Position numbers and translations under genes: made by a program
Notes under the pieces: generated by a model
What the model was told of the DNA's origin: nothing
Database searches by the model: none
What the model saw: only the letters and a program-made list of their open reading frames with translations
From: Psammoneis japonica
Lineage: Eukaryota
Reading direction: 5' to 3'
Length of the DNA stretch: 64,000 nt
Assembly (NCBI GenBank): GCA_008632985.1
Contig: QPGO01000010.1
Location: 1-64,000 of the forward strand
In this document: piece by piece, positions 1 to 30,720 of the stretch
How positions within the stretch are numbered: position 1 is the first letter of the stretch
How the letters are laid out: each line of letters starts with the position of its first letter

Positions 1-715
1 ATGGAACACATGGAAATGCACATGCAAAACATGCGACGGATGACAAAAAACATTTGTGTCACAGTCCAGCAGCACAAGGTCCCACCCAGAGCTGGAATGT
101 GTCAGGACTTGGGTCAAGATGACAATGTTGATTTTGACATTTTCAAGGATGTCCAACTTGAAGACATTGTCGACGATCTCATGAAGCATTTTGAATCTAA
201 TCCCAAAGTCCATGTTGGAGGAACCACTGCCTCCAAGTCCAAGGGGGTGTCTCCAGAACTCTTGTCCAAGATCTGGAGGATCAGTGCCAAGGATGCAGAG
301 TGGACCATTGAGAACACTGCTCAACTCCTCCGATGCACCCAAGACCCAGCTTTCTCAAGGAACTGTTCCACGAATGACAGGATGCTGCGGCATCAACAAA
401 TTGCCCAGCACTTCTTCATGGATGCTTTCTTTGCAAGTAAAAAGGCTGGCAAGTCCACACAAGGACACTCGTGCATGCAGCAATTTGTTGCCAACAAAGG
501 CTTTGTCTGTGTGGTGCCCATGCATGCTTGATCTGAGACACCTCAGGCACTCAACATGTTTGCCAAGGAAGTGGGCGCACTGGAGGCGATCACATGTGAC
601 AGTGACCCAGCACAGAAATCTGATGCGATTTGACAACTTCTTCACTCCATTGGGGCCAGTCTTTGGCTGCTGGAGGAAGGAACACCATGGTTGAACCATG
701 CTGAACTGTGCACAT
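1..715 (+). mobile_element. Decayed Ty1/copia (diatom CoDi-like) LTR retrotransposon fragment, integrase region
   Basis: Frame 1 reads GVSPELLSKIWRI...SRNCSTNDRMLRH...HFFMDAFFASKKAGKSTQGHSCMQQFVANKGFVCVVPM and continues through TGA stops as SETPQALNMFAKEVGALEAITCD...LLEEGTPWLNHAELC. This matches the diatom copia pol motifs as I recall them (TNDRMLRY, FFMDTFFA, FVTDKGFVYVVPM, EEGTPWANRAELY), with Y->H/C and R->Q/W/H/stop changes. Truncated at about 715. Confidence 0.85.
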
Positions 716-1094
716 CAGAGGGCGCAACACACAGCAATCCAGCCACACCTTTTCATTGTGATTTTTGTTCATTTTGCAAATGAAGTTTTTGCAGTTTCAA
801 ACCTTGTCAGTTGTGCAGCTGGCAACAAATTTTAATCTGTGACAGGCAATTTGTTTGGCTGTGGCAACCTCTTTTCATCCACAAGAAAACAACTTTAACT
901 GTCCAAACGCCCCCCTCTTTTCCCATTTTGCATGTGCCTTCGTTCACTGTGACAGCTGACAATCAACACAATTAGCAGTTTTTATGTCATGTGCCTGTTT
1001 CATTGATTGAAGTGACACATGCAATGAATCTAGTCCACTCTTTGCAATCAACAGTGATGCATTGCTGCTGTGGCTTTTTAACATTGATTGTCGA

Positions 1095-2320
1095 TCAATG
1101 CCAAGTCAATGCTGCGGTCCCGGTTGTTCTGCATTTCTGGTTTGCTTGTGCTGGAGTCTCACTTCCTTTGCTTTTGTCACTGTCTTCTTGGCTGGCTGCA
1201 TCTTCCTCCTCATCTCTTTTGCCACCTGGTGCATCCGTTGCTTTGTCGTCCTCCTCGTCATCACTAGAAAGTTCCGTTGTTGCTTGTGTTCTCGTCTCCG
1301 ATTCCGCTGGTTTTTCAGTGTTTCTTCCCTTTTTTCCTTTGCCTTTGCTCTCCTTTTTCTCTTTGTCTGTGCTCCATGTGTTGAAATGCACACCCTGCTC
1401 ACTCGCCCTGTCTTCCTTTGCCTCCTTCAGCAGTTTGTTGAAGCGCAGCATTCTGCCATCCTTCTAAGAGTCACGCTGTCACGATGGGTCTGTGTGCAAT
1501 GGTGCCGGTTTCCCCTCTTCGTTCCCTTCATCATTTCCCTCCTGCATCTTCTTGCACTCCCAAACCTTCCAGCAGTTTCCCATCATCAACAGGGCCAGTG
1601 CCTCATTGCTTGCCACAGCCAGATCTGTGGCCTTGGTGCTGCCAGACTCTGCCAGACTCCTCCACATCGCAGTGCTCTTTGTGAATTTTAGGATGTTGTC
1701 ACAGAGCCATGCGTGCACCTCCCTGTTCTTTTGCTTCTCAGACACAATTGTGTCCATCATCCCATCCTCCCAGGTTGCAATGAATTCTTCTTCAATGTCA
1801 GCTTCACCCTGTTTCCGCTTCTTTCCGGATGCCTTCTTCCTTGCTTCTTTCTTCCTTTTCCCGCAGATTTCCCCGGCTTGTTTTTCTGTTGTGATGACTG
1901 CAGCAAAACAAGAAATTCATTGGTGGCACCACACCCATTTCTGCTTCAGAAATGCCCCACTCCGCCACACTTGCCACTCATTGCACTCTTCATTGTCGTC
2001 TGACACATGGTGTTTCTTTTTGCGTTGATCGCATTGAGCAAGCTTTTTTTAGCCCAGTCCTCCCACGATCCCACCCATTTGCGCTTGCTGAACTTGCCAT
2101 CTGCCATGTTTTTGCACATTGGCCAGGACACCTTGCCACCACTTGCCATGTCATCACTGACAAGACTCCTGTGGAGCGCTCCAGGCATGGCAACATTCAA
2201 TGGTTTGCGATTCAAGACTGGAAGGAGGCTGGGCACATTTTCACTTGACACCCACATGCCTGGCATTGTCAACACAAACGATGACCTCACCAAGGCTCTT
2301 GGTGCCACACTGCACACCCA
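1095..2320 (-). pseudogene. Decayed repeat-associated ORF (acidic/basic C-tail), probably part of a DNA transposon
   Basis: Fragments 1479-1760 (ASNEALALLMMGNCWKVW...PLHT) and 1095-1451 (GRMLRFNKL...EDR + acidic tail) resemble a recurrent diatom hypothetical family (SDEAFALL..EN.W..W...RFNEL). Interrupted by stops and inside a TpA-free block. The element class cannot be fixed by eye. Confidence 0.4.
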
Positions 2321-3479
2321 CCATGCCCATCAGATGATGGGACACTGCCGTTGATGCTTTGTTCTGCCCCATTTTTTCCCTGCAGAATTGCCCTTGGTCA
2401 CCTGTCATTTGTCTGTTCCTTTTCTGAGTCACCTGGTTGACTGCACTTTCTCAGATGGTTGACTCTCATCCCGCTGTGCCTTTCTTTTCTGTCTTTGATC
2501 TAGATTTGTCAAGATGACTTGTTTGGATCAGGGGAGGGTGAAAGCAGACCTGCTGTGGCACACGGTCAGACCATGTGCAGGGACGACGGACAGATGTCAT
2601 TAGATGGATGAGCAGACCCATCCGAGATCTGCTTCAGTCACTCTTTCTTGCTGGCACACATGTCATCCACTGTCACCAGTCTGCAGGGAGCTCTTTGGCT
2701 CACAGCTCTCACCATTGGTGCTCTGTCAAAGGCATCTTGGCTGAATCAATGGAGCTGGGGTCTCTCACTCTTGTCTCACACTTGAGCCTCTCTGGAGAAC
2801 TGCAAAAAAAGCTTGACCAACACATGAAATGCTTGTTTGTGCAGAGCTTGTTGCTGTCAAAACAACTTGTTAAAATGTCAAGAAGAAAGTTGATTGGGTC
2901 AACATTGCAAAATCTTTGTCAATCATGTCAGATGTCTCAGAGTCTCACAACAACTCTGACAATGTGTTTTCAACTTCATCTTCTTCAGATGTCATCCTCA
3001 GAGCCACTCATCTTGTGAAGGTGGGCAATGGAGCACTGGTCAACACGCAACAAGAAGATCCACAGGCTGGTCACTTGGACACACCACAGCTTGTGGCATT
3101 TGCCATGGAGTTGCAGATGACCATCTGTCCATCCAATCTGCCAAATGGGAAGATGCTTGCAGTGAAACAAGTCTCCATGCACTCAAAAGCCTTTGGAAAG
3201 GTTCCTCATTTGTCTCTTGAATGATCTCTCAACTGTGAACTTGACAACAAGATGCTTTGAATTCCCAGTTTTGGGTTTGATTGGATCCAAGTTGCAGAGA
3301 GGACAAAAAAGAAAAAGAGTTGTCTAGAAACAGTGATGTCTCCGTGGACCCTGCAATCTCAAATGCTGTGGTTGGAGCACAAGTCTGATTGCTGGGGATT
3401 GGACTGAAAGAAGACACTGAAATGGAGATTGCAATGATGGCAAGGAGGGTGTCATTGTTCTCAAGGGGTTGTCTGATCA

Positions 3480-5780
3480 GCGTGTGACGACCATCAAGTG
3501 GGAGGCTGTCACTTCATTGGGGCAATCCTGTCAATCAAGCAGGAAAAGATGGTTTTCACTGTCTTTCTTTTTCAAAGACTGTGCTGCCTCAGGGCTTGGC
3601 TGTGCCTGTCTCCCTGGGGCAGTGCAGGGCCATCTCTCCTTGTCAGAATGATGAATCACTCTGCTGTTGTGAGCACATGAGGAGTTAGAGAGCCACAAGA
3701 AGAGGAGCACATTGAAATCTGAAGAAGCAGTTGTTGGAGACTGTGCCTTGGTCACCACTGCACTGGAGTGTGCAACTGCAGAGTTGATTGATGCAAGATG
3801 GTCATGTCCTTTGCTCCTTTTCTTCCATCACAATGAGAGCTCTTGGAGCAGACAAGAAAAAAATTGGTGATCCATTTCTGTTTGGTGTGGACCCAAAAAC
3901 TTGCTCATGCTGGTGGACAATGGAGATCCCTCAGAAGACAGCAAAGAACATAAACTGCCAGACATGGAAAGGCCAGAACAAGGCACAAATTCATGCTTTA
4001 CATTTTGACAGGAGTGTTGTGTGTGCACAAAAGGAGTGAGGACCTCTTTGCCATCCATCAGCAGCTGAAAATGTTGTGCAAATGTGCAACCTGGCTGTCT
4101 CTTGGGTCACCTCCTTTGTTCAAGATGTTTTCAAATGGGGTCAGCACAAGCGGCGGTTGCTGCCCAGAGTTGGGATGCACTCAAGGACTGTGAGTGCCAA
4201 AAGTTCAGTGTGTGAGAAACAATTGCATTTTGACAAACTGAGACAAGTGGAAGATGCTGTGCCACTGAGAGAGTGAGAAGTGGGAAGGACTGGCAATGCA
4301 GAGGCCACACCACTGGTCACATCAGGCAGGGGATCTGACAAGAATGTGCCCCAATTGCTTTGCAGGACCCCTCCTGTCTCACATTCAAGCCCCTCTGGAG
4401 AATGGCGCTGCAAACAGGGATGACATGGACCATCCCTTTTGTGTGCCCAAAGTGCTGACCAAGACATGTCACGCTGGTGTGTGGAGCTTGCTGCGGTCAA
4501 GACATGTCATGAAAGTGTCAGGAAGCAGCTTGATCAGGTCGATCTTACAGTGCAAACTTTTTGCGGATCTTGTCAGTTGTCTTAGAGTCCAGGAATGACT
4601 CCAACAATCCTCATGGGGACTTGTCTTGTGAAGTTGGGGAATGAGGCACTGGGGAAGCATGACAAGATGCTGCACAGCTTGGTCACTTTGCAGCCACAGA
4701 TGCTCCAAAAACAGGATGAGCTCTTGAACCACTCTCTCAATTTCAGAGCTGTCATGAGATTCTGGACTTGAAGATGGGTTTGTGTTGGACCCGGGTTTCT
4801 GAAGGGTTCAAAAAGGACAAAAAGGTGTGTGGAATTGTCTCTGTGGATCTTGTGATGCCAAATGCTTTTGTTGGAGCATGTGTCTGCAGGGGTGGAGATT
4901 GGGATGAAAGAAGGCAGCACCATGGAAACAAAGATGGGTGTGATGGCAAGGAGGGGACAATTCTCAAGGCTCAAGGGCAGCTCTGATCAGCACATGTGGC
5001 CACCAAGTGGGACAGTGCAGCAACCACATTGGGGAATCCAATTCATCATCATGCAGGAAAAGATGACTTTCACAACCTTTTGGTTTTGAAGACTGGGCTG
5101 CCTCAGGGCTGGCTGTGTGCACATCTCCCTTGGGTGGTGTGGGGCCATTGATCATTGCCAGGACAAACCAAGCAGTCTGCTGTTGTGGTTTTGGTGAAGA
5201 GCTCAAAAGCCATGAGAAGATGAGCAAGTCAAAGTCTGGAGAAGCAGTTGTTGAAGACTGCACCTTGGTCATTGCTGTGCTGGATTGCACAACCATGGAG
5301 TCAATTGCACAATCTCTTGGAGCAGGCAAGAAAAAAATTTGTGACTCTTTGTCTGTTTGGCAAAAACCTGAAGATTTGGCAAAGCTGGACAATGAAGCTC
5401 ACACCCAGAAGAAGAGTGTTTGGAAAGTTCAGAACCAAGGCTTTGGATGTTGTGCACACATGGAAGGAGTGTGGGAGACCTCTGCACTCTGTGCAGTTCC
5501 ATCATCCAGTGAGCAGCCAGAAACATTGTGCAAGTGTGGCACGTGTCAGGGGTCACCTCCTTCATTCAAGAGGCCATTAAATGAAATTGATGAGCAGTGG
5601 TTGCTGCCCTGCAGTGGGGTGCAATGAATGGCTGTGTGCCAAAACTTTGGCATGTGAGAAACGACAATTGTGCTGACAAAATGGGCTGTGGGATTGACCA
5701 TCAAGCAAGTGTGGAGGCCCAAGTGGTGCAGGCATCTTCAAAGTTGAGACAAGCACCAGCAGATTCTGCGACACTGAGAA
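3480..5780. repeat. Diverged internal duplication (~3480-4280 vs ~5000-5780)
   Basis: Shared collinear motifs: CAGGAAAAGATG, GCTGCCTCAGGGCT, GAAGCAGTTGTTG, CCTTGGTCA, CTCTTGGAGCAG-CAAGAAAAAAATT, GGGTCACCTCCTT, GGTTGCTGCCC, CACTGAGA. Confidence 0.75.
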
Positions 5781-5976
5781 ATTGATGAGCAGTGGTTGCT
5801 GCCCTGCAGTGGGGTGCAATGAATGGCTGTGTGCCAAAACTTTGGCATGTGAGAAATGGCAACTGTGCTGACAAAATGGGCTGTGGGATTGATCATCAAG
5901 CAGGTGTGGAGGCCCAGGTGGTGCAGGCATCTTCAAAGCTGAGACAAGCACCAGCAGATTCTGTGACACTGAGAAA
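5583..5976. repeat. Tandem duplication, 195-bp unit x2
   Basis: GAAATTGATGAGCAGTGGTTGCTGCC starts at 5583 and at 5778. The copies differ at 8 positions, all transitions. Confidence 0.95.
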
Positions 5977-6215
5977 GCGAGAAGTGTAAAACGTTGGCAA
6001 TGTGGAGGCAGTGCCAGCCACATTGGGGGATCTGAGAATGTGCCCGTGTGCTTTGCACAGGACCACAGCACATCAAAGCTGAGACAAGAAGCATCAGCAG
6101 ATTCTGCAACACTGAGAAAGCGAGAAATGCAAAACATTGGCAATGTTGAGGCAGTGCCAGCCACATTGGGGGATCTGAGAATGTGCCCGCGGGCTTTGCA
6201 CAGGACCACAGCACA
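5935..6215. repeat. Tandem duplication, ~140-bp unit x2
   Basis: AAAGCTGAGACAAG...GAGGCAGTGCCAGCCACATTGGGGGATCTGAGAATGTGCCCG...CAGGACCACAGCACAT occurs twice. Confidence 0.9.
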
Positions 6216-6619
6216 TTTCTGATTGCTCCAATGTGACACACTGCCATGGTGAACACTTGGTGGCCTTGTTTCAAGGAAGCATCAGGCAATGTGCCCCCAG
6301 TGGCATCTTTCAATCCCCCCATGCTAAGATTGCAGCCACGGTGATGCAATGCTCTGACACAAAATCTGCAGCCGGTCTTTGCCACAGGGTGTCCCACACA
6401 TGACACAATTGCTGATGTTTGACGGCAGCATGGCTGGCCTGTGGCAATCTGTTTGCAAAGGTAAAGTGGCATGAACTGCCCCCATGAGGCCCACTGGCAA
6501 ATGATGATTGAAGCTTGACCAGTTGAACATGCAGGCCACAAGATTGCTGGCACAGCCAGCTCGGCAACAAGCGACACTGCATTTTGAGTTTGAGAAGGCG
6601 GCAGCACCGGCGGTGCTCT

Positions 6620-7010
6620 GTTTCAGCTGGAACAGTTTGCAGAAATGACACAAAGCTCAGCACAATGGCATGGCATCTTGTTTGGTTCCTCCCCTGGCAC
6701 AAACTCTTCTTGTTGATTGTGTTGCCCAGGGGACCGGTGGTGGAAGTGAAAAATGAGCGCCCCCCCTTGGCTGCCACACACTCCAACACTCATCATGTCC
6801 ACTCCTCTCCACCAACTGGCAGATGTGACATGTTTTGTTTCACAGAGGCAGCAGGGCTTGCTGCAAGCACCTGTCAAGAGACCAACACCACGTGATTTCC
6901 CTGGAGGCGGCATCTGCCTTTTTGGACTCCGGTCCACACCATGCTTCGAAACTGTGTGTTTCCTCATCTGCTTGTTCTTCTGTGCTGTCCACAGGATGTC
7001 GGATGCATGA
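6620..7010 (-). pseudogene. TpA-eroded third copy of part of the lipase-like gene
   Basis: Collinear with 10600-10950 and 15370-15600 (CTTGTTGATTG, GGACCGGT, GGCGGYATCTGCC, GCTTCGAAAC, CTCATC, TGCATGAGCT). Confidence 0.8.
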
Positions 7011-7471
7011 GCTCTACGTAGCTGACTTTTCCCGCTTGGCATTATCGAAATTACAGCCAGACATTGTTCTGGGAAAAAGCTCGGCTACCTTGTTGTTGGC
7101 GCCGCTGTACAAGCGCAAGCAACAGTTCTCTCTAGCTAGAGAGACCATGAAATTGTGACCGTGAGCGCGTCACGACATTCATGAAGCGCGCGTGCGATTC
7201 AAATTTATTTGACATATTCGAATCATTATATAGTTACTTAAGATGCATAAATCAGTAATGGATACATTCATAAAAACCGTTGACATGTTGCAGAACGCGC
7301 ACGTAGGTCTCACGTACGAAAAATGCGTGGAGCGAGGTTGAGACAACATGGTTGCGCCATCGTCGGAGACTCCACGCCGCACTTCGCAGGAACATCTGCC
7401 GCTTAACGACAAACTGTCATTTTCATACCAGAGAGAGCAAGAAGTGAGAAGAGGGTTACTAGGGCCCTACC

Positions 7472-10130
7472 ATGGTCAAACAAGAATTGTTCGATTCGTA
7501 TCCACGTGAGCTCCTCGACAAACTCGCAAAGGACCTGTGTTGCGTGGATGACAGGTCTGATCGCACGGGTCTCTGCAGCAGGCAGCTGCAAGAGTTCGAG
7601 GTGAAGGAACTCACGGAAGAATCCCGAAAAGAATTCGACAGGCGGATATTGAGGTATGCATTCACTTTCACTTTCAAGGGCAGGCTGCATGTGATTACAA
7701 AGGGAGGATTCAAAAACAAGAATTTCAAATTCAGGCTTTGTGTCGCCAAGGAGGATTTGGTAGAATTGTACACGGCCGTCAAGAACCACCCTAGAGACTG
7801 GATGCATACCGACGACAACGGCAATTTGACACTGTTAGGAAGCACCTACAAAAAAACGTTTGGTTCGTATATTGAATCTAACGTTGCCAATTGCAAAGCT
7901 CAGGACGTATACAAGTGGTTTGACGACGGTGATTATAAAACGGAAGTGAAAGCACAGGTCGACAGAATGCGGGAAGACAGGGAGAGGGAGGTAAGTTCAT
8001 GCACGTGAGAATTCTACGTATTTGGATGCCACGATACTGCAGTTCTGCAAGCTTATCTAACTTCTTTTTTTGTTCGTTCCCTCATCTGTAGCAGCGTACC
8101 GCGGCAGCTGCTACAGAGCGGACGTGCGAACCGGAACTGGTACACGAGCCTCGTACGCTTCCTGATACCGAGGATGAACAGTTGCCGGTGAGTACAGATT
8201 GTTATATTGTATTTTAGTGTGTACATTGTATGATACTCTGTGGCATTCTATCCACTTGTTTGCTGGCTTATTCATTTTGTATTCCGTTTCTCAATTAAAC
8301 TCCCCGCAGATTGTATCATCTTCCGAGTCGACGGAGGCACAACGCACTGGTCGCACTGGTGCTCCTTCCGTAGTGACGGGCGCCGCTTCAAATCAAACTG
8401 AGTTCCTTGCGTCCTTGCTGGCTGGTGCTGGCCAAGGAACGGGGGTCAACATTACCATTAATCAATATCAAGGCGATAACCGTCACTACGAAAACACCTA
8501 CAACGGCACCGCCGCTCCATCCAGTACCGACGGTAGCACCGCCGCTCCATCCAGCACTGACGGTCGCAACGCCGCTCCATCCAGTACTGACGGTAACACC
8601 GCCGCTCCATCCAGCACCGACGGTAGGAACGCCGCTCCATCCAGCACCGACGGTGGTGACCGCACTCCTAGTTGGGTGGAACGAATCTTGGAGGGACAGG
8701 AACTCCAAGGCAAACGAATCGTGGCGGAACAGGGACGCCAAGGCGAACGAATCTTGGCGGAACAGGGTCGAGTCTTGGCAGAACAGGGACGCCAAGGCGA
8801 ACGAATCTTGGCGGAACAGGAACGCCAAGGCGTGCAGCTAAGCGAGGTGCACAAACAGGCGACTACCAAGAAGCCGCCTGCTAGTGCCAGTCGCTACAAC
8901 CGTCATGCAAACAATCCCGAAGATACTTCACGGTACCAAAATGATGTATCTTCTCCACAGTAAGTTTCCGAGATTGTTTCTTTTTGTCATTTTGCGATTA
9001 CTGTCATTAATTGTTGTGACTTGCTTGCTTCTCATGTGGTTTTGGCAGGCGCAAGGAGGAGCCCTCGGTGCCCCATCGGAGCAGCGTCCGCGAAGAACTG
9101 GGCCCTCGGACGAAGCTGGAATACGACGAGATTACGTTGGTCTTTCAGGAGAAGGAGATGGAAACACCTATCGCGGTTCATCCCGATAACAAATTTCAAG
9201 GCGTTTTTGACCGGTACAATAAAGGGCAGGACAGCTTCATCTTCAAATTTGAAGGACGCGAAATCGATCCAACCCAAACACCAAGCTACTTAGGCATGAG
9301 AGACAAAGACGTGATTGATGTGGAATTGAAGAAAGGCGTCAGAAAAGACGCGCCCATTGAGCTTTCAAGTGATGAGGACGACGAGGACGAAGACGCACCA
9401 CCAACGGAGGATAAGACCCTCCCTCCTTTTTGTTGCTTGCGTGACAAATGCAAGCATAATCGTCCAGGCCATGTCCCTCACGAATGCCACGCAACGGGTT
9501 GCAAAGCGTATATCCACCATCTTTGCGCCCTTGAAGAAAAGCTACTCGGTCAAAATGAGAATCACGCCTATTGCTGCAAGGAGCACCAGATCTCCGGTGA
9601 GCTCAAGGAGAAAGAGCTCTCTTGCGAAAACAAGCCAAAGGCAGGCAGTCCTGCTGGTTTTGTCCATGGAGCAGCAGCGGTGGCTGGAAATGACAGTCGC
9701 CTTGTCGCTGCAACGCAGCCTACGTTTGATGTAGATCCGAAGCTCCGTTCGAGTTCGAATGCTAGCACGCCCGTCAATATGGTATGTGATTTTCTTTTCA
9801 TATTTTCTCTTTCTCAAACACTACATCGCCTAATCGACCGCTTTTGTCTTTGCTATGATTTCTTTGCTCAAGAACACGAACGTCGATAGTGGACCCGTCG
9901 ACGAGGTATGTGTGAGCGTCGATAGAGAAGATGATGGTGCCTCTGAGGGTGACGCGAAGCCGAGTGGCGATGGCGACGCTGCTGGCACTGCAGGTTCTCG
10001 AAAGGCCCCAGCTGGCACGGCGACGATCCGATGCGAAGCGAAAGTCAAGGGCGGGCATCGTCGCTGCAAAAATAAATTCACACCCAAATGTGAAGGGGAG
10101 AAATTCTGTTCCTTGCACACTCCCAAGTGA
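7472..10130 (+). CDS. Five-exon ~751-aa protein with low-complexity repeats, coiled-coil repeats, a SUMO/ubiquitin-like domain, a PHD-like Cys/His finger and a C-terminal CCCH-type finger
   Basis: Exons 7472-7990, 8092-8187, 8310-8959, 9049-9781, 9873-10130. All introns are GT..AG and all phases are compatible. SUMO-like motif FIFKFEGREIDPTQTPSYLGMRDKDVIDV; finger CCLRDKC..HECHATGCKAYIHHLC..YCCKEH; terminal CEAKVKGGHRRCKN..FCSLH. Confidence 0.8.
8500..8656 (+). repeat. Coding minisatellite, 30 bp x5 (AAPSSTDGxx)
   Basis: GCCGCTCCATCCAGYACYGACGGT repeated at 8511, 8541, 8571, 8601, 8631. The paralogue at ~13803 has a single unit. Confidence 0.95.
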
Positions 10131-10539: not shown

Positions 10540-12300
10540 GTGGTCGTGTATCTCCTCTACTGTAGCATGGTGTCCTACGTCGTGATCTCGCTTTTTGTAT
10601 GGCCCTGAGCTAAATGGCACGAAGTCTTATTCGGTTCCTCCATGAGTCGCAGTCCTGGCATAAGCTCTTGTTGATTGCATTGTCCAAGGGACCGGTAGAA
10701 GTAAAATGAATACCTTCCCTCTACTAACTGTCGGATGCAACATTACAATTCTGATTTATTTCGCAGACGTAGCCGGGCTGGCTACAAGTCGCGGTCCAGA
10801 AACCGACATCATGTGATTTTTCAAGGCGGTATCTGCCACCTTGGTTTTGGGTCCATATCTTAAGCTTCGAAACCGCGTCTTCTCATCCGCTTCTTTTGAA
10901 CTATCCACATACAAGACCGGCACAAAGACCGGTTTGTCGAAGTGCATGAGCTTACCGACATGTCGATAAAGCTTGGCTTGTTCCATCATTCCTCTCATTT
11001 TAAAGAATCTCAAATGCAAATTGACAAAGGACCTGGCAAAGTGATCGGCAACGTCAAAAGACGCCTTGGTTGCATCGTCCAGGAAGGCACTCAAAAAGTC
11101 ATCAATAAACTCAACATCAGAGTATCCTCTTGGTAAAACGTCAGCATTAAACACAACGTTGCGCTTATAAGGTTCAATCGAGTCATGTAAAAGCTTAAAG
11201 TATGCTCGGAAGGCTTGTCCAAGACTGTCGTCACGAGCGCAGAGATTGCAATGGCTATGATATCGACGTCCTTCAACGCTCCGACAAGTTTAGTCCAAAA
11301 AGGTCCACGATGCCACCAAGAGAGTATCCGGTGACAATCACTCTAGTAATGGGAGTTCCATCCCGTTTGAATCGATTTGGTTTCTTGCTGTACTTTCCGT
11401 TGAAATAATTGACGATATCCGTAGCGTGCTTTTTGAGATAGACATTCCAAATCATTTCATAATACGTTTTCTGAAAACCAAGTCCCTTCAACTTGTTCCA
11501 GGGCGACACCGAATCAATGTTAGCATCGGCGATGATGTCTTTGATTGTCACTGTCCCTCGCCACCCCAAGACGCCTGCAATTATTCCAACAAATGTGGGA
11601 GCATTCATAGAAAGCCAATCCGATAACAAATCCCTCAATGTTGGATGGAGTTGAAGCGTCTAAAATTTCATTGGCGGTAGCAGCGCACTCTTCGGTTTCC
11701 GATTCTTGTTACGCTTCAACCTTGCGAGCCGTGTCCTGATAGCATTTCTCGAGTACCACCATGTCGTCGTCCGATTCTTGTTTCTCGTTAACTCTTGGTG
11801 CTGCTCTTGTGACTCTCGCGTTTCTCGGATTCAAATCAAAAAAACAAATTACTAGAGCAAAAGAAATGCCGGAAATGGTTCTCATAGTTGCTTTTTGTAT
11901 GTTTAGCTCTTGCTTCTTGCTCGTTTCCACTGCTAACAAGTGCTCTTCCTCTTCTCGTTTCACGTGACGTTGTGCTCCCCACTCCCACCTTGCACCTTCC
12001 GCCAGCGCGTCATCAGCCGGTTAGGTTTCCGGATCGGTTGGCCACCTGAAATAACGGCTTTTCCCCTGAATACTCGTCAGGCAAGTTTCCGGAACGTTTG
12101 GCAACATGCATGATGCATGGCCCAACCTCTCCTCGTCTTGTTCGTTACTCGCCATGGTGTCGAGAGAGTCATTCAGTGTTCAGATGAACTTCCACCTCTT
12201 TTGGTTGGTTGCTTGGCGTTGCGTTCGCTCTCCACTCAGTTGCATAACATTGCGGTCCATGCAGATTGACTCCTCATGGCCGCCGTTGCTCTCTCTTGAA
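10540..12300 (-). pseudogene. Class-3 lipase-like (alpha/beta hydrolase) pseudogene, copy A
   Basis: Fragments LGWRGTVTIKDIIADAN, RVIVTGYSLGG (GxSxG nucleophile elbow) and FNADVLPR lie in successive different frames (11273-11638, 11091-11276, 10756-11154). Confidence 0.7.
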
Positions 12301-12379
12301 TCCAGAATGTGCTTTCGATTTCTGCATCGTGTCAGTCGTGGGAATCTGGAAATCATTCCAAACCGTTTCCACAGATTTT

Positions 12380-13070
12380 TTGCGGATGGCTGACGGACCA
12401 TCGTGATTTCGCGCGCCGGCCGCGCCGCCGGCCATCTGTCTGTCTGTCTTTCTTTCCAATTCCATTTTTCAATGGCCTTCTTCTTGGTCCACCTCAGGAA
12501 TTCCACCCTTTTGGAGGATCGCCAACGCAGAGCACTTGACCCTGACCATGCCCCACCTCCTCTGCTGGTTTTTGTTGCTTTTCAAAATTTCAATTTTGTT
12601 GCATCACATTTGCCGCTCTGTGTGCTTCATCTGCCATTTCATCATGCTCAATTTGGGTGGTGGCAGTCAGCTTTCTGGTTGATTGTTTTTTGGACACTGC
12701 CAACCATTGCAGTTTTTGGCATTTGGTTTGCAGCATGCTCCCCCATTTGACATTTGAGATGCGTGCTCTCTGCTCATCGCCTGACTTCGGCTCATGAGTT
12801 GCAGCTTCAACTCCATTTTCTTTTTTCTGGCTGGCTCCTCTTGTGCCTCCGATGCATCTTCAGCTAGCAGGTGGTCTGTTTGCACAATGTTGGGGAACAA
12901 ATTGGATGGAGCTGGAGCTGCAGACATTTGTTCCCTGTTTTCCAGCTGCCACCTGAGCAGCACACCACATGAGTGTGTGTGCTTGTGTGTGTTTCCAAAC
13001 ATCAGATGCATTCATGCTGCATTCATTTTGGCGGCCACTCGGCAGCTGTGCACTGTGTCATGTCATCGGG
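12380..13070. other. TpA-depleted block 2 separating duplication units A and B (probable TE fragment)
   Basis: Essentially no TA from ~12250 to 13070 apart from one GCTAGC; rich in CA/TG. Confidence 0.8.
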
Positions 13071-13469
13071 GTTGTAGCCAAGCCGAGGCGGTGGCGGGGA
13101 ATCTGCGATTGATTTGTGCACAGTAAAATGAATTTGTGAGTGCGCCAAAATCGTATGATGACGCACGCACGATTCAAACTTATTTATTGTATCAAACGTG
13201 GAATATGATGATTTTTTGTCTAATTAGAAAATGAACAATCTAAGTATTGGATACGTTCATAAAAAGCCGTTTGCATTTTGCAGAACACTCACGTACAGTT
13301 AGTGGTTCCCAATACAAACTCTACGTGGTGCTTGAGACATGCCTTGCCAACGGGCAGACTCCTCGTGACTCCGCTTTCAGCAAAATCTTGAATCTATCGC
13401 CGGGCCAGCGCCACAACGACACGACAACTGCTGTCATTTTCATACCAGAGAGCAAGTGTTGCGGCGGTG

Positions 13470-15199: not shown

Positions 15200-17075
15200 C
15201 TCTACGCGACGATGTCGTATTTGTTATCAGCAGGAGACTTGACTTTCGAATTCCTTGAATCTTCCCGCTTGAGTCTACGTTGCTCCGCTTCCTCCTCGAG
15301 ACGTTCTCGCTCATTATTCCTGCGCAAATCGACCCCTTTTGTACGTCGTGGTCTCGTTTTTGTGTGGTCCTGAGCTAAATGGCTTATGATTCCTCCATTA
15401 GTCGTACTCCTGGCATAAGCTCTTGTTGATTGCATAGACCAAGAGACCGGTAGATTCTTACTCGTATCAAATCCCCTCTACTAACTAGCGGTTGCAACAA
15501 TACAATTCCGATCTATTTCACAGACTTAGCGGGGCTTGCTACAAGTTCTGGTCCAGAAACCAGCAACATGTACAGAGTCCGGTTTGTCGAAGTGCATGAG
15601 CTTGCCGACATGTCGATAGAGCTTGGCTTGTTCTATCATTACTCTCATTTTTTAAAGAAACTCAAATGCACATTGACAAAGGACCTGGCAAAGTGATCGG
15701 CAACGTCAGAAAACGCCTTGGTTGCATCGTCTAGAAAGGCATTGAAAAAGTCATCAATAAACTCAACATCCGAGTATCCTCTCGGTACAACGTCAGCTTT
15801 TTAAAAACAACGTTGCTCATATTAAGGTTCAATCGAGTCTTGTAAAAAACGTAAAGTATCCTCGGAAGGCTTTCCAAGAGTGTCGTCATGGGCGCAGAGA
15901 TTGCAATGGTTTTGTTGTCGACGTCCTTCAACGCTCCGACAACTATAGTCCAAAAGGATCCACGATGCCACCAAGAGAGTATCCGGTGACAATCACTCTA
16001 GTAATGGGGGTTCCATCCCTTTTGAATCGATTCGACGTCTTGCTGTATTTTCCATTGACGTACTTGACGATATCCGTGGCGTGCTTTTTGAGATAGACAT
16101 GCCTGCTCATTTCATAATATGCTTTCTGCACATCCCTGCAACTTGTTCCATGGCGACACGGAATCAGCATTGACATCGACAATGATATCTTTGATTGTCA
16201 CTGTCGCTCGGCACACCATAACGAGTGCCGAGCCTGTAATTATTCCAACAAATGTGGGAGCATTCAAAGACAGTCGTTCCGATACCAAATCCCGTCCAAA
16301 CGCGACTCCATTCTGAAAGAAGCGTAACGTCAAGTCTGGAAACATGTCTCGGATGTTGGGCAATTCTAAAACCTTTTCAAAGCCTCGCCGCGATGCAGCT
16401 TCATAAAAACACCTCTAGCGACCGTGGCACATAGGTGCAGCATGTCTTCTTCCACACCAATCATATCTTTGGATGGAAGATGCTTGATTCCCTCAATATC
16501 GATTTGAGTAGAAGCGTCTAAAATTTCATCGGCGGTAGCAGCGCACTCTTCGGCTTCCGATTCTTGCCACCCTTCAATCATGCGAGCGTGTCCTGATAGC
16601 GTTTCTCGAGTAAATGGTTCTTGCTTCTTGCTCTTTTCCACTGCTATTGTAAGTGCTCTTCCTCTTCTCGTATCCATATCATATCCTGCACGTGACATTG
16701 CCGTCCCTGCTCCCCATCTTGCGCCTTCCGCAACATGTGTGCAAGCTGTAAACCCCATGGTATGAAGGTGAGAAGAACCCTATAGCATCCACCACACCAT
16801 CAGCCGGTTGGGCTTCCGGATCGTTCCACTAACTGAAAACACCCGTAATTTGCAGCTGCTAGCGACGGTAATTTGTCGGGGAAGTTTCCGGAACGTTTTG
16901 CAACATGGCCCAACCTCTCCTCGTCTTGTTCATTGCTCGCCATGGTGTCGAGAGTCATTCAGTGTTCAGATGAACTTCCACCTCTTTTCATTGGTTGCTT
17001 GGCGTTGCGTTCGCTCTCCACTCACTTGCACGACATAACGGTCCACGCAGATTGACTCCTCATGGCCGCCATTGC
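15200..17075 (-). pseudogene. Class-3 lipase-like pseudogene, copy B
   Basis: RVIVTGYSLGG at ~15970-16000 and CRATVTIKDIIVDVN; several frameshifts; collinear with copy A. Confidence 0.7.
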
Positions 17076-17239
17076 TTCTGCGACTTGTGCGTCCACTCTC
17101 CATCGTGAGTCTATGCGTCGACCGTTCTTCGCGCGCGCTCGCACGCACCCGAAGGTCTCCTCACAGGCCTCTCGCGGAAGTAAGATGGACGATGTGTCAG
17201 GGTCGTATGTAGGCCGTTTGTTACGGTGCCATTTTTCCG

Positions 17240-20100
17240 TCGCACCGCCCGGGACCTGCCGCAAGCAGCATTGTTTCATTGCTGTCATCGGCGTGAATGA
17301 CTCCCAAGGCCATCCAGCACTGCAGAGTGAATCTTTCATTGGGACGTCACTTCCAGCATGACCACAACAAAACCCCGCAGTTGCGCGCAACCGCTGTTGC
17401 ACAGCTCCTCATTCCATCTTTCACAGTCGGACATGTTGATCCTTTTCTCTTGGCTTGATTGCACTGCTGGCAGCCACGCATGGAATGCCAGCTCTCCTTG
17501 TTCTTTGCTGTGGTCAGGGTGACACACACACCCAACACCCACCCTCCGCAGATCATCAATTGCCAAGAACCGCCACACCAGCTGGTGGTGATCGCAAGCC
17601 AGTTGCTGCAGAAGGCCACAAGAGACCGGAGGACACAAGCAGTGAGAACATCCAAGACACAGATTTCAAGACAAATCGATGATTGTGAGAAAAATCACTG
17701 CACAAACACTCACCACGACTTTGTCTTTGCACGGCTTGTGTCGTGTCTCCTGTGAGCATGCAATTGCTGCTGCAACCGCACTTGTCCCATTCTGTTGCCA
17801 GAGGCATTCACACTGTTGCAAACTTGTCCTGAGCTGGCACACATCTGATTCCACCTGCAAAGGTGTGAATGGTGTCAGCCAGTGCTGTGCAAAAGGCAAA
17901 ATTGTGAGGAGCTGTCATGTGTTCCTGTCATCGGCTCCACTCAAAGTCTTGAGATGAGTCAGCTTCAATGAGTGATTCTGAGTCAGGCTTCAAAGACATC
18001 TTTTGGATCTTTGGGTGCCAATGCTTGTGGAACACAGGTGAGCACATTGCACTTGCTTCCCCAAGAATGTTGCTGCTGGGGGGGCTTGTCATTCTTGGTT
18101 GCTTGTGCAGAGGCGAGCAGCAAAATTTTTAAATGCAAAATGCAAGCCAATGAAAGGGCAAACAGAGTCAGCAGTGGGTTTGGCAATTCATCCAAAAATG
18201 CAACATTCATGATGTGCTGTGCAAGCAAAAGGAAAGCAAAGATCATCATTGTCAGCTGGACAGATGATCACAAGCAAAGATTTGTTTGAACAAGAACAAA
18301 TGCCATGAATGTTTGCACTTTCTCTGCTGTCAGAACAATGTTGCCAGACATGTTGGACAGAAGTGGCTCAAATGTTGATGGCAGGTGGAGACAGAGACAA
18401 CAACATTGGAGATGAAAGAGTCTGGCCTGTTCCAGCTCCAGCAGCACAATGGACTCCTTCAAAATCAGTTTTTTTCCCCAATCAAAGGGTGGTTGTGCAC
18501 AAAAATGCCTCATGTTTTTTTTTGTGTGCACTCACCTCTTGATTTTCAAAACAATCAAATTTGAAGGAGTTTGGTGTGCCAAACAGCACAGAAAATTGGC
18601 TCTTGTGTGATGGATTGCTCATCACCTGGGGCTGGAACAGGCCATCCATGCTGTTGAAATTGAGCTGAAAAGAGAGAAAAATTGGGAAAAACACCAGTCA
18701 CAAGTCAAAGTCATGCATGCTGTGCATTCTGGCACAACTTGAGCAGGGACAAATGAGTGAGTCATGTCAACACAACATGTTGCATTGCACCTGTTTGCAG
18801 ACATTTGGACTGTCACACAAAGAACTTGGTTGAGAGGCGATCAAAAGTGCAGCAGCAGCCAAATCATCAGTGCTCATTTGTGTGCACATCATTGTTGTGC
18901 TTGTGTCTCTCCACCCTTGTGCACCCATGTTGCAGCTCACAATGATTTGGCTGAAACACAGACCTTGCCCCTTTGAAGCCCCCCTGCCACTTTTGCTTGC
19001 TTGCAACATTTGATCTTGTGCAGTCAACAAAGCTTGTTGTTTGTTTCAAGCAAACAGCAGGGAAAGGACAGACCTCCCATGCAGCGTTGAGAGCTGGTTG
19101 CGATGGTGCAGCACACACGTGCAGCAACAAGCAGGCAAAGGGAAATCATCACCACTCACCACCCTCAAACCTGCCTTGAACCTTGAACCTCCTTGCAATT
19201 GCCACAGAGCTGAAAATTTTGATGCAGCAAAAAATTGTCAGAGAAAAAAGAAAAGCTGGCAACACACATTTGCAGAGCAGCCCAGCATCAGATGACAAGA
19301 CCTTGGCTGATGACAACCCCAGACTGGCCCTGTTGAAATGGCCCTGTCTGCCCTCCCAATCAATTTTGCAGGACCACCCATCTGTCGTCCAATGGAGTCT
19401 GCACCCAAAAATGTGAAGTGAGTGCTCCTGCATGCTTCCATGTTGTGATGTGGGACTCACTTTGTGGCCACTCAGATTTTGCTTCAGCAGCCCACAAAGA
19501 TGCTTTGTGCCAAGTGAAACATGAAGCAGCTGACAGGAAAGCCAATGTGTGTGAGGAGACACTCAAGACAAACACCCAGACTCTGCCTGATCTCAAGGCC
19601 AGTGCTGTCAATCAGCAAGTGCAGCACCAATGCCAGAGCATGGCTGTCGTCAGCATGCCCATTGGCACTGAACGGCACTGAACTTTCATTCCAAGAGTTC
19701 CACAGTGTGCTCCATTCACAGCATGGCAGCACTCTGCCTGACCTCCTTGAGTGTTGTGATGGACATGGGTGCAAATTCTCTGTTGCCATGCTGGCCATGC
19801 AGTGGTCAAGCCATCTCATGACACTTGACGAAGTGCATGGCTGGCTGACAAATGGCAAAAGCCATGCTCAGAGTTGCAGGCAACTCATCATTGCCTCAGG
19901 GGGATCATGCATCCCTTCGTCTCAGACCAGCTCCAGGCACCCCCAGTGGGAGGATGGTGTGCTGGTCTACCACTTTGCACCACACTCCAAGTGAGTCCTG
20001 CTTGAGCTGGGCTCCAACTTCCCAGACCAAATGTTGACCACCTGCTCCCAGACAACCTTGACATTTAGCCCCAAGACAGCCAAAACACCATCACTGTCAC
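17240..20100. other. TpA-depleted hypermutated block 3
   Basis: TA is near absent (survivors include TTTAAA at ~18130 and TTTAGC at ~20066); CA/TG-rich; abrupt return to normal composition at ~20115. Confidence 0.9.
19270..19990 (+). mobile_element. Decayed non-LTR retrotransposon 3' region (CRE/R2-like, zinc-knuckle region)
   Basis: AWLSSACPLALNGTELSFQEFHSVLHSQHGSTLPDLLECCDGHGCKFSV resembles the recalled consensus AWL..P...NGT.LS..EFRD.L.LRYG.....LP..CDGCG.KF.V of CRE-like elements, again with R->H/Q and Y->H. Confidence 0.65.
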
Positions 20101-27960: not shown

Positions 27961-29624
27961 AAGAGGCGTGCCACTGATCAGATCGGACCTGCCGTTGAGG
28001 AATCATTATAAGAACCTACAAGGTCTGATATTTGAAATGCTCCTCATTGGTTGGGTACGACTCAAAATAACCCGGACAATGTGACTCGTGATTGGCGAAA
28101 CGGGATCGACCACGACTCACTGATGATTCTTTCTGCCGCCCGACCGGTCTTGTGAAATGAGTTGCTGTGCCATGCGAAATTTGCTCAGAAGCTCTCTGAA
28201 GGGAATCTGTGCATTAGCGTGCATTTTGTGCCAGCGCAGCTGCTTTCTCATGACACTGGGAGGGAGCACACCAAGGATGTTTTCAAGTCAAAGCCCAGCT
28301 CTTCAGAGCGAGCACTGGGAGCTCTCATGTGGCAAATTCTTTGGATGATTTTCCTGCTGGGTCTGCACTGCCTGGCAAACAAGCACCAGTTTGTCTCATG
28401 TTGAGCTGCCATTGAGATGGCTCATCACTTGCTCTCCTCAGATTGAAATGTTGGGTGGGGAAAGGAAAAGAAGAAGGAAATTGCATGTCACATCTTGAGC
28501 TGGGTGTTGTTTGTGATTGAACCAACAACAAGCAAAGAGCTTGGGAGAACTTTGAAGAGAGAGGAGGGAGCACATTTTGCAATGCTTGGCCCCGCCGCTG
28601 CTGCTTTTGTGAGACAACAGCACCAGAAACAGACACACCTCACCCAACAACCCCATCATCAGAGCAATGGGGGAGCCCATGTTTTGGGAACTGACAAGGT
28701 GCAAAACTGCCACTGTGCCTTCTTTTTCCAGCCATTCTGATTTGCTGGCTTTGCTCTTGTTTCTTGAGATGGGACACATCCAAACTGCAGAGGCTGCTGT
28801 GACTTTTGGGGTTGGGTGATTGCCTCAGAAAGAGTGTGGTGCAGCAGCAAGCAAGAGCAAGAGAAAAAGAAAAAGCTGGAGACCACCGCTGGCGGCTGTT
28901 GACTTCACATGAGGCACAAAGACAGAGTCTGTTTCTTCTTGGGCCAGTCTTTAATGGCACAAATGGCTGGGTTGGTTGCAATCTCTGCTTGTGTGCATCA
29001 ACCACAAAGCTCAGCCAAGACACACTCTCTGCAGCGTTCTTGCACAGTCTGAAGAATCGCCCATGTCCATGGCAAAAATTGCTCATCTGCAAAAAGCCCC
29101 TCTGCCTGGCCTGTCTGGCCCAGACACAGATGACTGCACCTTTTGCACTGTGGATGCTCTCTGCTGCTGCCATCCACACCCCCATCAGCTGCAATCACAG
29201 GAGGCATGTCATTCAACTCCACATGCAGTGCTGCACGGCCTTGTGGCACCATTTTCAATTTCTGGTCATGGCAGCAAGTCGTTCATGTCTTGCAAAGCCA
29301 GCTCTTCAGCTGCAAAGAATGATTGTCATCTTGGTGCACCAGAACCCCCCATTGGCTGTTGTTGTTGTTTGTCATGTGCGACGTCACAGCATCATTGCCC
29401 ACGACATTTGTGTGTGTCGGAGTGAATTCAAATCGATTGCTGCAAATTTTGCTGTGCATTCTACACATGTCCAATTTGTGCAGATTAGCACAGGAACAGG
29501 ATTTTTGAAAAATGGAGCCGTTGCCACATTGTGTGCTGCGTGATTGATCAAAGATTTGTCGCACTGAACACTGCCAGCACCGCCATCCACCACGGGCTTT
29601 CCTGTTGCACTCTTCTCAAAACCA

Positions 29625-30720
29625 GATGACGAATGGATCTGTGCCACATGCCATGATGTTTTGGAAGAGCCAGTCCTGACAAAGTGTGGTCATTTGTTCT
29701 GTTGTCTTTGTTTGAAACAGTGCTTGGAGGAAAAGGAAGAATGTCCCACCTGTTGCAAAGCTGTGCGCAACAACTTTGCTCTTGTGTGAAGCCCCATGCA
29801 CACATGCCAAAGTTGACTGTGAAATGTGGGTCAGCGAACAAGAGTGATGACTCATCTGCAACTCTTCAAAACCCCAATGATGCAGCAGCAGCAGAAGCGG
29901 GTTGTGACTGGACGGGAAAGATGAGCAATTGGAGGCAGCACACTGCAAAGATGAGTGGAGGGGGACACAAGCACCGCTGTCCCCGCAAACTCATGTCAAA
30001 GCACATTGCTGGTGACATGACAAAGCACATGGAGCTCATGATGGATGCAAGAATCCAAGAATGGGAGCAAGAGAAAAAGTTGGAGGCAAGTGAGCAGAGA
30101 ATCCTCGCAATCTCTGAGCGGCATTTGGCTGACTTGCATTGCTGACAATTCTGTCAGCGGTGGATGAGACACAAACCAGATGCATTGTTTGATTTTTGTG
30201 TTTGTGCCCCCCATGGATTTCAGCCAATTTGTGACTTGCGGTGTCATCGCGGACCAAATCCTTGTGACTTGCGGGGATGCCACATCCCTCTCTTTGTTTG
30301 GAATTCAAGGTCCCACCAACATGCCTTGGGAAGTGGGTTGTTTCCTTTGGTCATGGTTTGGTCTTCCACAAATGAGGAGCACCCAACATTCAAGTTTCCG
30401 GAGGGTTTCACCACCTCAATGTTTTCTGCTCTGGAATGGTGTGCGTTGGCACTGTGATTTCCAACAGAGAAACCAAACCCACGATGGAAGACCGATTTCT
30501 CAATTTCTGAAATGTTGTTGTCAATCCAAGACCTCCTGGCACACCCAAACGTGAACAACCCTGTCCAAGCAGAGGCATGCCACTGCTGTGCCAATGACAT
30601 TGAGCAACGCAATTCAAAAGCAAAAGAGATTGTAAGCAAGCATCTCGCATCTTCCTCTTCAGAAGACTTTCTCGCCACAGCACGCAAGGCATTTGGCCCA
30701 GAACGCATTCCTGAATCCCT
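29625..30720 (+). pseudogene. Eroded gene with a C3HC4 RING plus TRAF-like finger followed by a Ubc9-like E2 (UBC) domain
   Basis: From 29631: EWICATCHDVLEEPVLTKCGHLFCCLCLKQCLEEKEECPTC, then KLTVKC...GCDWTGKMSNWRQH. At 30290-30640: GIQGPTNMPWE/GLFPLVM..PTFKFPEGF..RWKTDFSISEMLLSIQDLLAHPNVNNPVQAEACHCC, which resembles Ubc9 (GIQDLL..PN...PAQAEAY..Y). Frameshifts and stops are present. Confidence 0.75.

What the first reader, a model, noticed from the sequence alone, without database searches (positions are those of the whole stretch)
1..7010. Surviving TA sites are mostly YTAR, implying a TAY/RTA target motif
The TA sites that remain in block 1 are mostly CTAG, CTAA, TTAG or TTAA. The exceptions I found still contain TAA or TTA, and RTAY (ATAT, GTAC, ATAC, GTAT) is effectively absent. 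This is what A->G editing in 5'-TAY-3' on either strand would leave. Such a context bias suggests an enzyme rather than GC-biased gene conversion. TAY is also exactly the Tyr codon pair.
Basis: partly seen in the sequence, partly recalled or inferred. Interest (0 to 1): 0.72.

Follow-up and report, generated by a model that had tools for sequence, protein, structure and literature searches.

The report
Flank rule of diatom TpA hypermutation
In this diatom, patches of transposon DNA and a neighbouring dead gene copy have had almost every TA step mutated to TG or CA on the chromosome, about twice as fast when the A is followed by C or T, a signature otherwise reported in one unrelated alga and a usable fingerprint for the unknown mutator.

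Summary
Observation confirmed. Block 1 (1-7014) keeps 25 TA: 18 YTAR, 0 RTAY (P<=1e-6), replicated in 150 kb outside the window. The DNA is diatom. Direction is shown, not only inferred: against an intact paralogue 91 of 119 TA became TG/CA and 2 stayed. In 19 young copia copies TA>TG runs about 100x faster than other A>G, on both strands equally, and 2.0x (1.6-2.6) faster in TAY than TAR; the base 5' of T has no effect. So the target is TpA; TAY is a preference, not a motif. GC-biased conversion, Tyr selection, RNA editing and assembly error are rejected. The flank bias alone does not prove an enzyme: CpG decay in the same copies has a 2x flank bias too. The TpA core signature is published for Bigelowiella natans (bioRxiv 2026); the flank rule, saturation and in-place spread into a host gene are not in its main text. 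Best mechanism: chromatin-targeted, non-processive DNA adenine deamination (about 0.5); a T-centred lesion cannot be excluded. The scan noted the same pattern before on other pieces of this genome.

The parts
1..7014 (.). Block 1: TpA-erased, CpG-depleted domain (25 TA, 87 CG, 805 TG, 734 CA; GC 0.49)
106..710 (+). Fragment of a copia-type retrotransposon pol (integrase region), no Tyr left in the frame-1 reading
   Evidence: translation; family copies, all TA-poor; family member L028 matches RVT_2-bearing polyprotein P0001, E 2e-12. The window fragment itself has no Pfam hit and no direct match to P0001
712..2152 (.). 1.44-kb piece of a 2.5-kb dispersed repeat of unassigned class; 14 other copies examined, all TA-poor; holds 10 of the 25 TA
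   Evidence: no Pfam hit for its ORFs
2191..2729 (.). About 540-bp dispersed repeat, unassigned
2720..7014 (+). Erased, internally duplicated copy of a host gene with a MIB/HERC2 domain; intact paralogues at G000:C88 and C395
7008..7015 (.). Sharp right edge of the domain inside sequence still homologous to the intact paralogues: last converted TA at 7008, first kept TA at 7015, about 460 bp upstream of the next gene's ATG (7472)
7416..8564 (+). Next host gene, syntenic with the C88/C395 loci, TA-normal (internal control: 124 of 177 TA kept over 7400-12000)
12073..13074 (.). Block 2, same signature
16871..20066 (.). Block 3, same signature
28070..31065 (.). Block 4: erased copy of host genes incl. 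a RING/UBC gene (intact paralogue G000:C79); 99.2% identical allele on C273, which carries a young copia insertion at 30842-30846
41589..48552 (.). Block 5, same signature
53104..56657 (.). Block 6, same signature

Best explanation
A domain-restricted mutator converts chromosomal TpA to TpG or CpA in transposon-rich (probably silenced, CpG-methylated) chromatin. SHOWN: it acts on integrated DNA, on both strands equally, one site at a time, about 100x above other A>G changes and about 8x faster than CpG decay; it can cover a resident host gene copy up to a sharp edge; per strand it runs TAC 18.7 > TAT 16.0 > TAG 9.6 > TAA 7.8 (TAAA slowest), so duplex sites with TAR on both strands (YTAR) outlast the rest. 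INFERRED: the domain is set by silencing marks that spread from transposons; the chemistry is hydrolytic deamination of the A in TpA to hypoxanthine by a TadA/ADAT-family or ADAR/ADAT1-family enzyme, fixed as G at replication; the effect is a defence that destroys Tyr codons and TA-containing signals. Confidence 0.95 for the shown part, about 0.5 for adenine deamination by an enzyme.
For: Direction from intact paralogues: 91 of 119 TA > TG/CA, 2 kept, against 47 of 57 and 124 of 177 kept in controls. Post-insertion: of 231 differences between the two LTRs of 19 elements, 117 are TA/TG or TA/CA, 44 TG/CA doublets, 45 CpG, 25 other. Rates from 852 terminal-branch events at 136 sites: 3'Y/3'R 2.03 (1.58-2.60), 5'R/5'Y 0.90 (0.70-1.14), sense/antisense 0.98 (0.76-1.26); AA>AG 0.125, CA>CG 0.089, GA>GG 0.152 against 12.9 for TA on the same scale. 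These rates predict the rank order of TA survival in 58 kb of old blocks (Spearman -0.85, p=0.002, 10 duplex classes). The 2.5-kb repeat inside block 1 gives the same order: kept 0.265 YTAR, 0.076 YTAY, 0.019 RTAR, 0.008 RTAY; RTAR>CA at 11 of 12 sites. TA loss and CG loss co-vary across copies (Spearman 0.81). TadA-derived ABE7.10 favours 5'-YAY and disfavours AAA (PMC10188366, passages). The genome encodes TadA-like, ADAT2-like and two A_deamin genes. Same TpA spectrum measured in B. natans mutation-accumulation lines.
Against: No enzyme is identified; the deaminase genes found look ordinary and lack reader domains in the ORFs seen. No strand-coordinated runs (same-strand neighbours 0.51 vs null 0.50), unlike processive ssDNA deaminases. 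TadA editors accept CA as well as TA; here CA>CG is about 145x slower. CpG decay shows the mirror-image flank bias (RCG 1.9x), so the flank effect may be DNA geometry or repair and fits a T-centred lesion equally. Survival in old blocks spans more than 30-fold while measured rates span 2.4-fold: ascertainment, new TA and wider context must fill the gap, and I did not model this. Symmetric contexts were not symmetric in host-gene comparisons (RTAY TG 25/CA 10, YTAR 28/15) nor at Tyr codons (RTAY TG>CA at 20 of 28 sites). YTAY>TG in the 2.5-kb repeat was not significant (14 of 20 sites, p=0.12). Methylation and silencing of the blocks are inferred from CpG decay only.
Confidence: 0.52

Rival explanations
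1. The altered base is the T: a thymine modification in 5'-RTA (for example an oxidised thymine that pairs with G) gives T>C. Same duplex outcome.
For: TA loss (RTA) and CG loss (RCG) share the same duplex geometry, each about 2x faster with a purine 5' of the pyrimidine. Non-processive and strand-symmetric.
Against: No Tet_JBP match in the genome, though that search rang in no control either, so it is inconclusive. Mispairing of oxidised thymine is from my own knowledge, not a call.
Confidence: 0.17
2. TpA carries a heritable symmetric mark (such as N6-methyladenine) in silent chromatin, by analogy with methyl-CpG, and the marked base mutates secondarily.
For: TpA is palindromic like CpG; hits are independent and on both strands; exposure is patchy with sharp edges.
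Against: Rate is about 8x that of CpG decay; from my own knowledge, eukaryotic symmetric 6mA is described at ApT in active genes and is not strongly mutagenic. No adenine methyltransferase search was run.
Confidence: 0.14
3. Error-prone gap filling by a Pol eta-like polymerase during repair of methyl-CpG deamination (WA>WG signature).
For: TA and CG loss co-vary across copies; CG loss is slightly higher near lost TA than near kept TA (0.080 vs 0.060, not corrected for copy age).
Against: AA>AG is 100x below TA>TG and no higher than GA>GG; no strand-coordinated tracts; TA loss unrelated to local CG density (Spearman -0.12, p=0.24); young copies lose about half their TA with CG rho still 0.86-0.97. 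The WA signature is recalled.
Confidence: 0.06
4. Editing of retrotransposon RNA or cDNA (ADAR-type, or reverse-transcriptase error) before integration.
For: Two A_deamin genes exist; retroelements are major targets.
Against: The two LTRs of one element differ at TA sites; both strands are hit equally; resident host gene copies in synteny are erased.
Confidence: 0.02
5. GC-biased gene conversion, selection on Tyr or stop codons, or an assembly artefact.
For: AT>GC direction; blocks are slightly GC-richer (0.494 vs 0.474); TAY = Tyr, TAR = stop.
Against: Non-TpA A>G is 100x slower; AT, AA, TT are not depleted; TA is lost in all codon positions (0.68-0.77) and outside ORFs with the same rule (YTAY>TG at 27 of 33 sites); independent short-read contigs match 2700-5612 and 6160-7498 with 0 differences (possibly the same sample); the C273 allele shares the TG/CA states (21 differences in 2,775 block-4 columns).
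Confidence: 0.01

Closest known systems
TpA hypermutation of integrated NCLDV and virophage DNA in Bigelowiella natans (bioRxiv 10.64898/2026.01.13.699255; I read abstract, results, discussion and conclusion, parts 1-3 of 5, and word-searched the main text; supplements closed)
   Same: TpA>TpG/CpA transitions on both strands, localised domains, long-term TpA-poor and CpA/TpG-rich clusters with transposon domains, ADAT2 proposed
   Different: Diatom rather than chlorarachniophyte; near saturation (rho 0.05 vs 0.45 for the NCLDV region); targets here are retrotransposons, other repeats and resident host gene copies; CpG decays too; a +1/+2 flank hierarchy is measured here, while 'context', 'flank', 'trinucleotide', 'CpG' and 'diatom' have 0 occurrences in that main text
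Fungal repeat-induced point mutation (RIP; PMC2621366, search listing with start of abstract only)
   Same: Dinucleotide-specific transitions that saturate repeats, leak into neighbours (leakage recalled) and kill coding capacity
   Different: Opposite direction (RIP makes TpA from CpA); here 75-90% identical tandem gene duplicates at 8181-12290/13458-17076 stay mostly TA-normal
TadA-derived adenine base editors (ABE7.10; PMC10188366, passages)
   Same: A>G in DNA, favours YAY, disfavours AAA
   Different: Engineered, ssDNA in an R-loop, accepts 5' C; here 5' T is near obligatory
DNMT5 CG methylation of transposons in diatoms (PMC9998398, passages) with 5mC decay
   Same: Explains the CpG>TpG/CpA half and offers the likely domain mark; 5mC deamination has its own flank order (ACG>CCG>GCG>TCG in MBD4-null cells; PMC11564873, passages)
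   Different: Does not act on TpA; slower; lags behind TA loss in young copies

Membership tests
B. natans-type TpA hypermutation | AT>GC transitions confined to TpA | tested here: met
   TA 12.9 vs AA 0.125, CA 0.089, GA 0.152
B. natans-type TpA hypermutation | Both outcomes, TpG and CpA (both strands) | tested here: met
   sense/antisense 0.98; 53 TG and 38 CA in block 1
B. natans-type TpA hypermutation | Localised to domains of foreign or mobile DNA | tested here: met
   six blocks in the window, sharp edges, copia and repeat content; host gene copies are also covered
B. natans-type TpA hypermutation | Integrated NCLDV or virophage DNA as target | not tested
   none recognised in block 1; genome not searched for viral inserts
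B. natans-type TpA hypermutation | About 1000x de novo rate, active in a subset of clonal lines | not testable with these tools
   needs mutation-accumulation lines; bimodal exposure of the 5' region among copies is only suggestive
B. natans-type TpA hypermutation | ADAT2-like candidate enzyme present | tested here: inconclusive
   ADAT2-like and TadA-like ORFs exist (L114, L111); the labels are my reading of Pfam hits and motifs, and such genes are expected for tRNA editing anyway
Fungal RIP | C:G>T:A transitions, CpA>TpA | tested here: not met
   CA>TA is the rarest transition measured (0.029); TpA is depleted, CpA/TpG enriched
Fungal RIP | Triggered by duplication as such | tested here: not met
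   tandem gene duplicates in the window and 95% identical paralogues C88/C395 keep TA
TadA/ADAT DNA adenine deaminase activity | 3' pyrimidine favoured, AAA disfavoured | tested here: met
   TAC 18.7, TAT 16.0, TAG 9.6, TAA 7.8, TAAA 3.3
TadA/ADAT DNA adenine deaminase activity | 5' pyrimidine of either kind accepted; ssDNA substrate giving same-strand clusters | tested here: not met
   CA>CG about 145x below TA>TG; no strand coordination at any distance tested
TadA/ADAT DNA adenine deaminase activity | Deoxyinosine intermediate | not testable with these tools
   needs chemistry on genomic DNA
Pol eta A:T mutagenesis (recalled WA motif) | AA as well as TA mutated, in tracts | tested here: not met

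The most novel reading that the evidence does not exclude
Diatoms and chlorarachniophytes share a natural, chromatin-guided adenine editor for duplex DNA that reads TpA plus two 3' bases and serves as a 'reverse RIP' genome defence, spreading from transposons into adjacent genes up to a promoter boundary. It would be the first endogenous DNA adenine-deamination defence, and this flank spectrum would be its biochemical fingerprint.
Probability: 0.4. Interest if true: 0.9.

Novelty: new variant of a known kind. Interest (0 to 1): 0.68.

Why it matters
TpA-specific hypermutation has one report in the library searched, in one alga, with no enzyme. A second, distant lineage where it has run to saturation supplies hundreds of polarised events and so a quantitative spectrum (TAC > TAT > TAG > TAA, TAAA slowest, no 5' effect, no strand bias, no clustering) that any candidate enzyme must reproduce in vitro and that can be compared with the B. 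natans mutation list to test common origin. If the agent is a natural DNA adenine deaminase it matters for genome defence biology and for base-editor engineering. Practically, it inflates identity-based ages of transposons (LTR pairs 88-96% identical with only about 0.5% ordinary divergence) and hides them from profile searches.

Tried and rejected
Literature searches for a diatom or protist report: diatom+TpA+depletion+transposable elements+mutation (found the B. natans preprint); TpA/TpG/hypermutation/A-to-G/transposons/diatoms (6 papers, only that preprint relevant by listing); searches returned 0 papers; listing showed nothing on it; a 2025 diatom TE preprint has 0 occurrences of 'dinucleotide', 'hypermutation', 'RIP' (10.1101/2025.10.24.684338, passages). 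The library lacks most subscription papers; B. natans Table S2 (supplement) could hold flank information that I could not see. The alternative reading that the base 5' of T drives the bias predicts the opposite TG/CA outcomes and was rejected. Search for a TA-intact copy of the 2.5-kb repeat or of the copia fragment: none among 14 and 10 loci examined. Allele comparison in block 4 showed no segregating TA (none left to segregate), only CpG changes, other transitions and three TG/CA doublets. Copies sharing a target-site duplication proved not to be alleles. Tet_JBP search blank and uninformative. Deaminase searches gave no unusual fusion or expansion. None of the best 120 of 1,273 homologues of the young copia polyprotein is Tyr-poor (minimum 3.0%), so I found no sign of the process in other sources, but that set is limited to long intact ORFs. 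No RNA holder listed for 2700-9000; a second run covered only 14 of 30 bins. Gene A has one outside homologue only.
Full report
OBSERVATION. The window alternates TA-normal gene regions (TA rho about 0.4-0.9, CG about 1) with six blocks where TA rho is 0.03-0.05, CG 0.14-0.61 and TG/CA are in excess. Block 1 runs from 1 to 7014 and holds 25 TA: 18 YTAR, 4 RTAR (all RTAA), 3 YTAY (all TTAY), 0 RTAY. Against three nulls YTAR should be 4.6-6.2 (P 6e-9 to 1e-6) and RTAY 5.9-7.4 (P of none 2e-4 to 1e-3). The pattern repeats in 150 kb fetched outside the window: 70/19/19/4 (YTAR/RTAR/YTAY/RTAY) in 33,281 bp of blocks against 856/1263/1214/1388 outside. Pooled over 58,007 bp, survival relative to outside DNA is TTAA 0.42, CTAA/TTAG 0.28, CTAG 0.12, GTAA/TTAC 0.11, CTAC/GTAG 0.04, ATAA/TTAT 0.04, ATAG/CTAT 0.02, GTAC 0.02, ATAC/GTAT 0.006, ATAT 0; reverse-complement pairs are balanced.

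WHAT THE DNA IS. Every homologue of the window's DnaJ protein that shows an organism name is a diatom. Block 1 is a pile: a copia pol fragment (106-710), 1.44 kb of a 2.5-kb dispersed repeat (712-2152), a 540-bp repeat, and from 2720 a dead, internally duplicated copy of a host MIB/HERC2 gene whose intact paralogues lie on C88 and C395. Synteny with those loci continues into the next, TA-normal gene, so the gene was mutated where it sits. The edge is sharp: no paralogue TA is kept from 6628 to 7008, and TA is kept at 7015, 7019, 7043 and 7052. Block 4 is likewise an erased host RING/UBC gene region with an intact paralogue on C79.

DIRECTION. With the intact paralogue as reference, 119 TA align to TG 53, CA 38, TA 2, other 26 in block 1; CG goes to CA 75, TG 72, CG 17 of 213. 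Controls keep 47 of 57 TA (two intact paralogues) and 124 of 177 (neighbour genes). A young copia insertion in the C273 allele led to 19 full-length copies at 94-97% identity (19 of 19 scored candidates, from 762 first-look candidates). They carry 38-133 TA each with CG rho still 0.86-0.97: TA loss precedes CG loss. Their paired LTRs, identical at insertion (established retroelement biology), differ by 231 events in 5,257 columns, of which 117 are TA/TG or TA/CA, 44 TG/CA doublets, 45 CpG changes and 25 anything else. The process therefore acts on chromosomal DNA after insertion.

THE FLANK RULE. Survival alone cannot say which strand is edited; outcomes can. At YTAY sites TG exceeds CA at 53 of 63 sites (5 reverse; p=3e-11), at RTAR sites CA exceeds TG at 13 of 17 (p=0.049), and YTAR (17:10 of 36) and RTAY (13:10 of 25) are even. 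Counting 852 terminal-branch losses at 136 sites (sites with TA in at least 2 copies, no CG, conserved flanks; others dropped), the rate per strand by the base after TA is C 18.7, T 16.0, G 9.6, A 7.8. With overdispersion: 3'Y/3'R 2.03 (1.58-2.60), 5'R/5'Y 0.90 (0.70-1.14), sense/antisense 0.98 (0.76-1.26); an A at +2 slows it further (0.60), TAAA being slowest (3.3) and TACT fastest (30). These rates predict the survival order in old blocks (Spearman -0.85, p=0.002). The 2.5-kb repeat of block 1 (15 copies) agrees: kept fraction 0.265 YTAR, 0.076 YTAY, 0.019 RTAR, 0.008 RTAY; RTAR>CA at 11 of 12 sites, YTAY>TG at 14 of 20 (not significant). Host-gene comparisons also agree (YTAY TG 35/CA 9; RTAR TG 15/CA 31) but show an unexplained TG excess in symmetric contexts (25/10 and 28/15), on non-independent copies. 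So TAY (= RTA) is a roughly two-fold preference within an obligatory TpA core: other A>G rates on the same scale are 0.09-0.15 against 12.9 (background from private changes only).

LIMITS. Survival spans more than 30-fold but measured rates only 2.4-fold; the young-family estimate is compressed because sites need surviving TA to be counted, the outside reference is coding-rich and poor in TAA/TAG/TTA, and about 7 of the 25 TA in block 1 look newly made. The tree is approximate and copies may recombine; the site-level sign tests do not depend on it. CpG>TpG in the same copies has a 1.94-fold 5'-purine effect, and 5mC deamination is flank-dependent in human cells too (PMC11564873 passages), so a two-fold flank effect does not by itself show enzyme recognition. 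RTA and RCG are the same duplex geometry, which keeps a T-centred lesion alive.

TYROSINE. It is a casualty: 120 outside homologues have 3.0-5.0% Tyr, the 11 copies with full-length frames 0.3-1.4%; at 39 columns with conserved Tyr the 429 cells read Cys 218, Tyr 100, His 88, Phe 22, Arg 1. Loss is similar at all codon positions (0.68-0.77) and the rule holds outside the ORF (YTAY>TG at 27 of 33 sites).

MECHANISM. Rejected: GC-biased conversion (context-blind; other A/T sites untouched), RNA or cDNA editing (LTR pairs, both strands, host genes), Pol eta-type repair (AA not raised, no tracts, no link to CG density), assembly error. Events are independent single hits (same-strand neighbours 0.51 vs 0.50 null) inside patches of exposure: the 5' region of the young element has lost 15-27% of its TA sites in 10 copies and 56-94% in 9. 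This fits an agent confined by chromatin that visits duplex or transiently open DNA repeatedly. Adenine deamination is the simplest chemistry; TadA-derived editors favour YAY and disfavour AAA, although they also accept CA. The genome has TadA-like, ADAT2-like and two A_deamin genes and at least five intact-looking C5 methyltransferase ORFs, none singled out. I put adenine deamination by an enzyme at about 0.5, a thymine lesion at 0.17, a methyl-adenine mark at 0.14.

COMPARISON. It works like the TpA hypermutation measured in Bigelowiella natans and meets its sequence-level features; the rate, regulation and viral targets were not testable or not tested. It is not RIP (opposite direction, duplicates spared). 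In the searches named under Tried and rejected I found no report for diatoms and no flank rule. Earlier notes of this scan describe the same blocks and the same YTAR pattern on other pieces of this genome; my counts were made before reading them and they are not independent support. Verdict: real, new variant of a barely known kind; interest 0.68.

Noticed in passing
L091-L108 flanks (young copia copies): The 500 bp upstream of the 5' LTR is TA-erased in 18 of 18 copies (rho 0-0.17) while the downstream 500 bp has rho of 0.25 or more in 8 of 18, yet the element's own 5' region is often the protected part. Directional spreading or oriented insertion at domain edges; unexplained.
   Followed up: partly
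L071, L091-L108: 5' LTR keeps more TA than 3' LTR in 14 of 19 elements (168 vs 102 TA; sign test p=0.06): possible promoter protection.
   Followed up: partly
L071, L091-L108: 11 of 19 copies keep a stop-free frame of 1,925-1,937 codons despite losing most Tyr; TA>TG/CA cannot create a stop from a sense codon except via TGA from TAA, so erased elements look intact to ORF finders.
   Followed up: no
young copia family: Non-TpA A>G (0.09-0.15) is about 2-3x above non-CpG C>T (0.03-0.07): possible leak of the same process, or reverse-transcriptase error.
   Followed up: no
L123-L125 (G000:C301, C297): Several C5 DNA methyltransferase gene copies are themselves TA-erased (rho 0.00-0.13), beside at least five TA-normal ones; 27 matches in all.
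   Followed up: no
window 7254-17076: Tandem segmental duplication of a multi-gene unit (75-90% identity) with further copies on C88, C273, C395, C504; blocks 2 and 3 start at the same point of the unit (12073, 16871).
   Followed up: partly
window 45781-46229: 450-bp repeat with at least 39 other copies at 91-94% identity inside block 5; would give another dated spectrum.
   Followed up: no
window 42029-43848: Degenerate tandem repeats (about 180-190 bp period) inside block 5.
   Followed up: no
window 7420-8492: A contig of run X2 matches this gene exactly with two GT..AG gaps (7988-8090, 8186-8309), the form of a spliced transcript, although the run is only guessed to be DNA.
   Followed up: no
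window 27854-27957: Very TA-dense stretch (about 20 TA in 100 bp) directly left of block 4, untouched: the edge is not set by target density.
   Followed up: no
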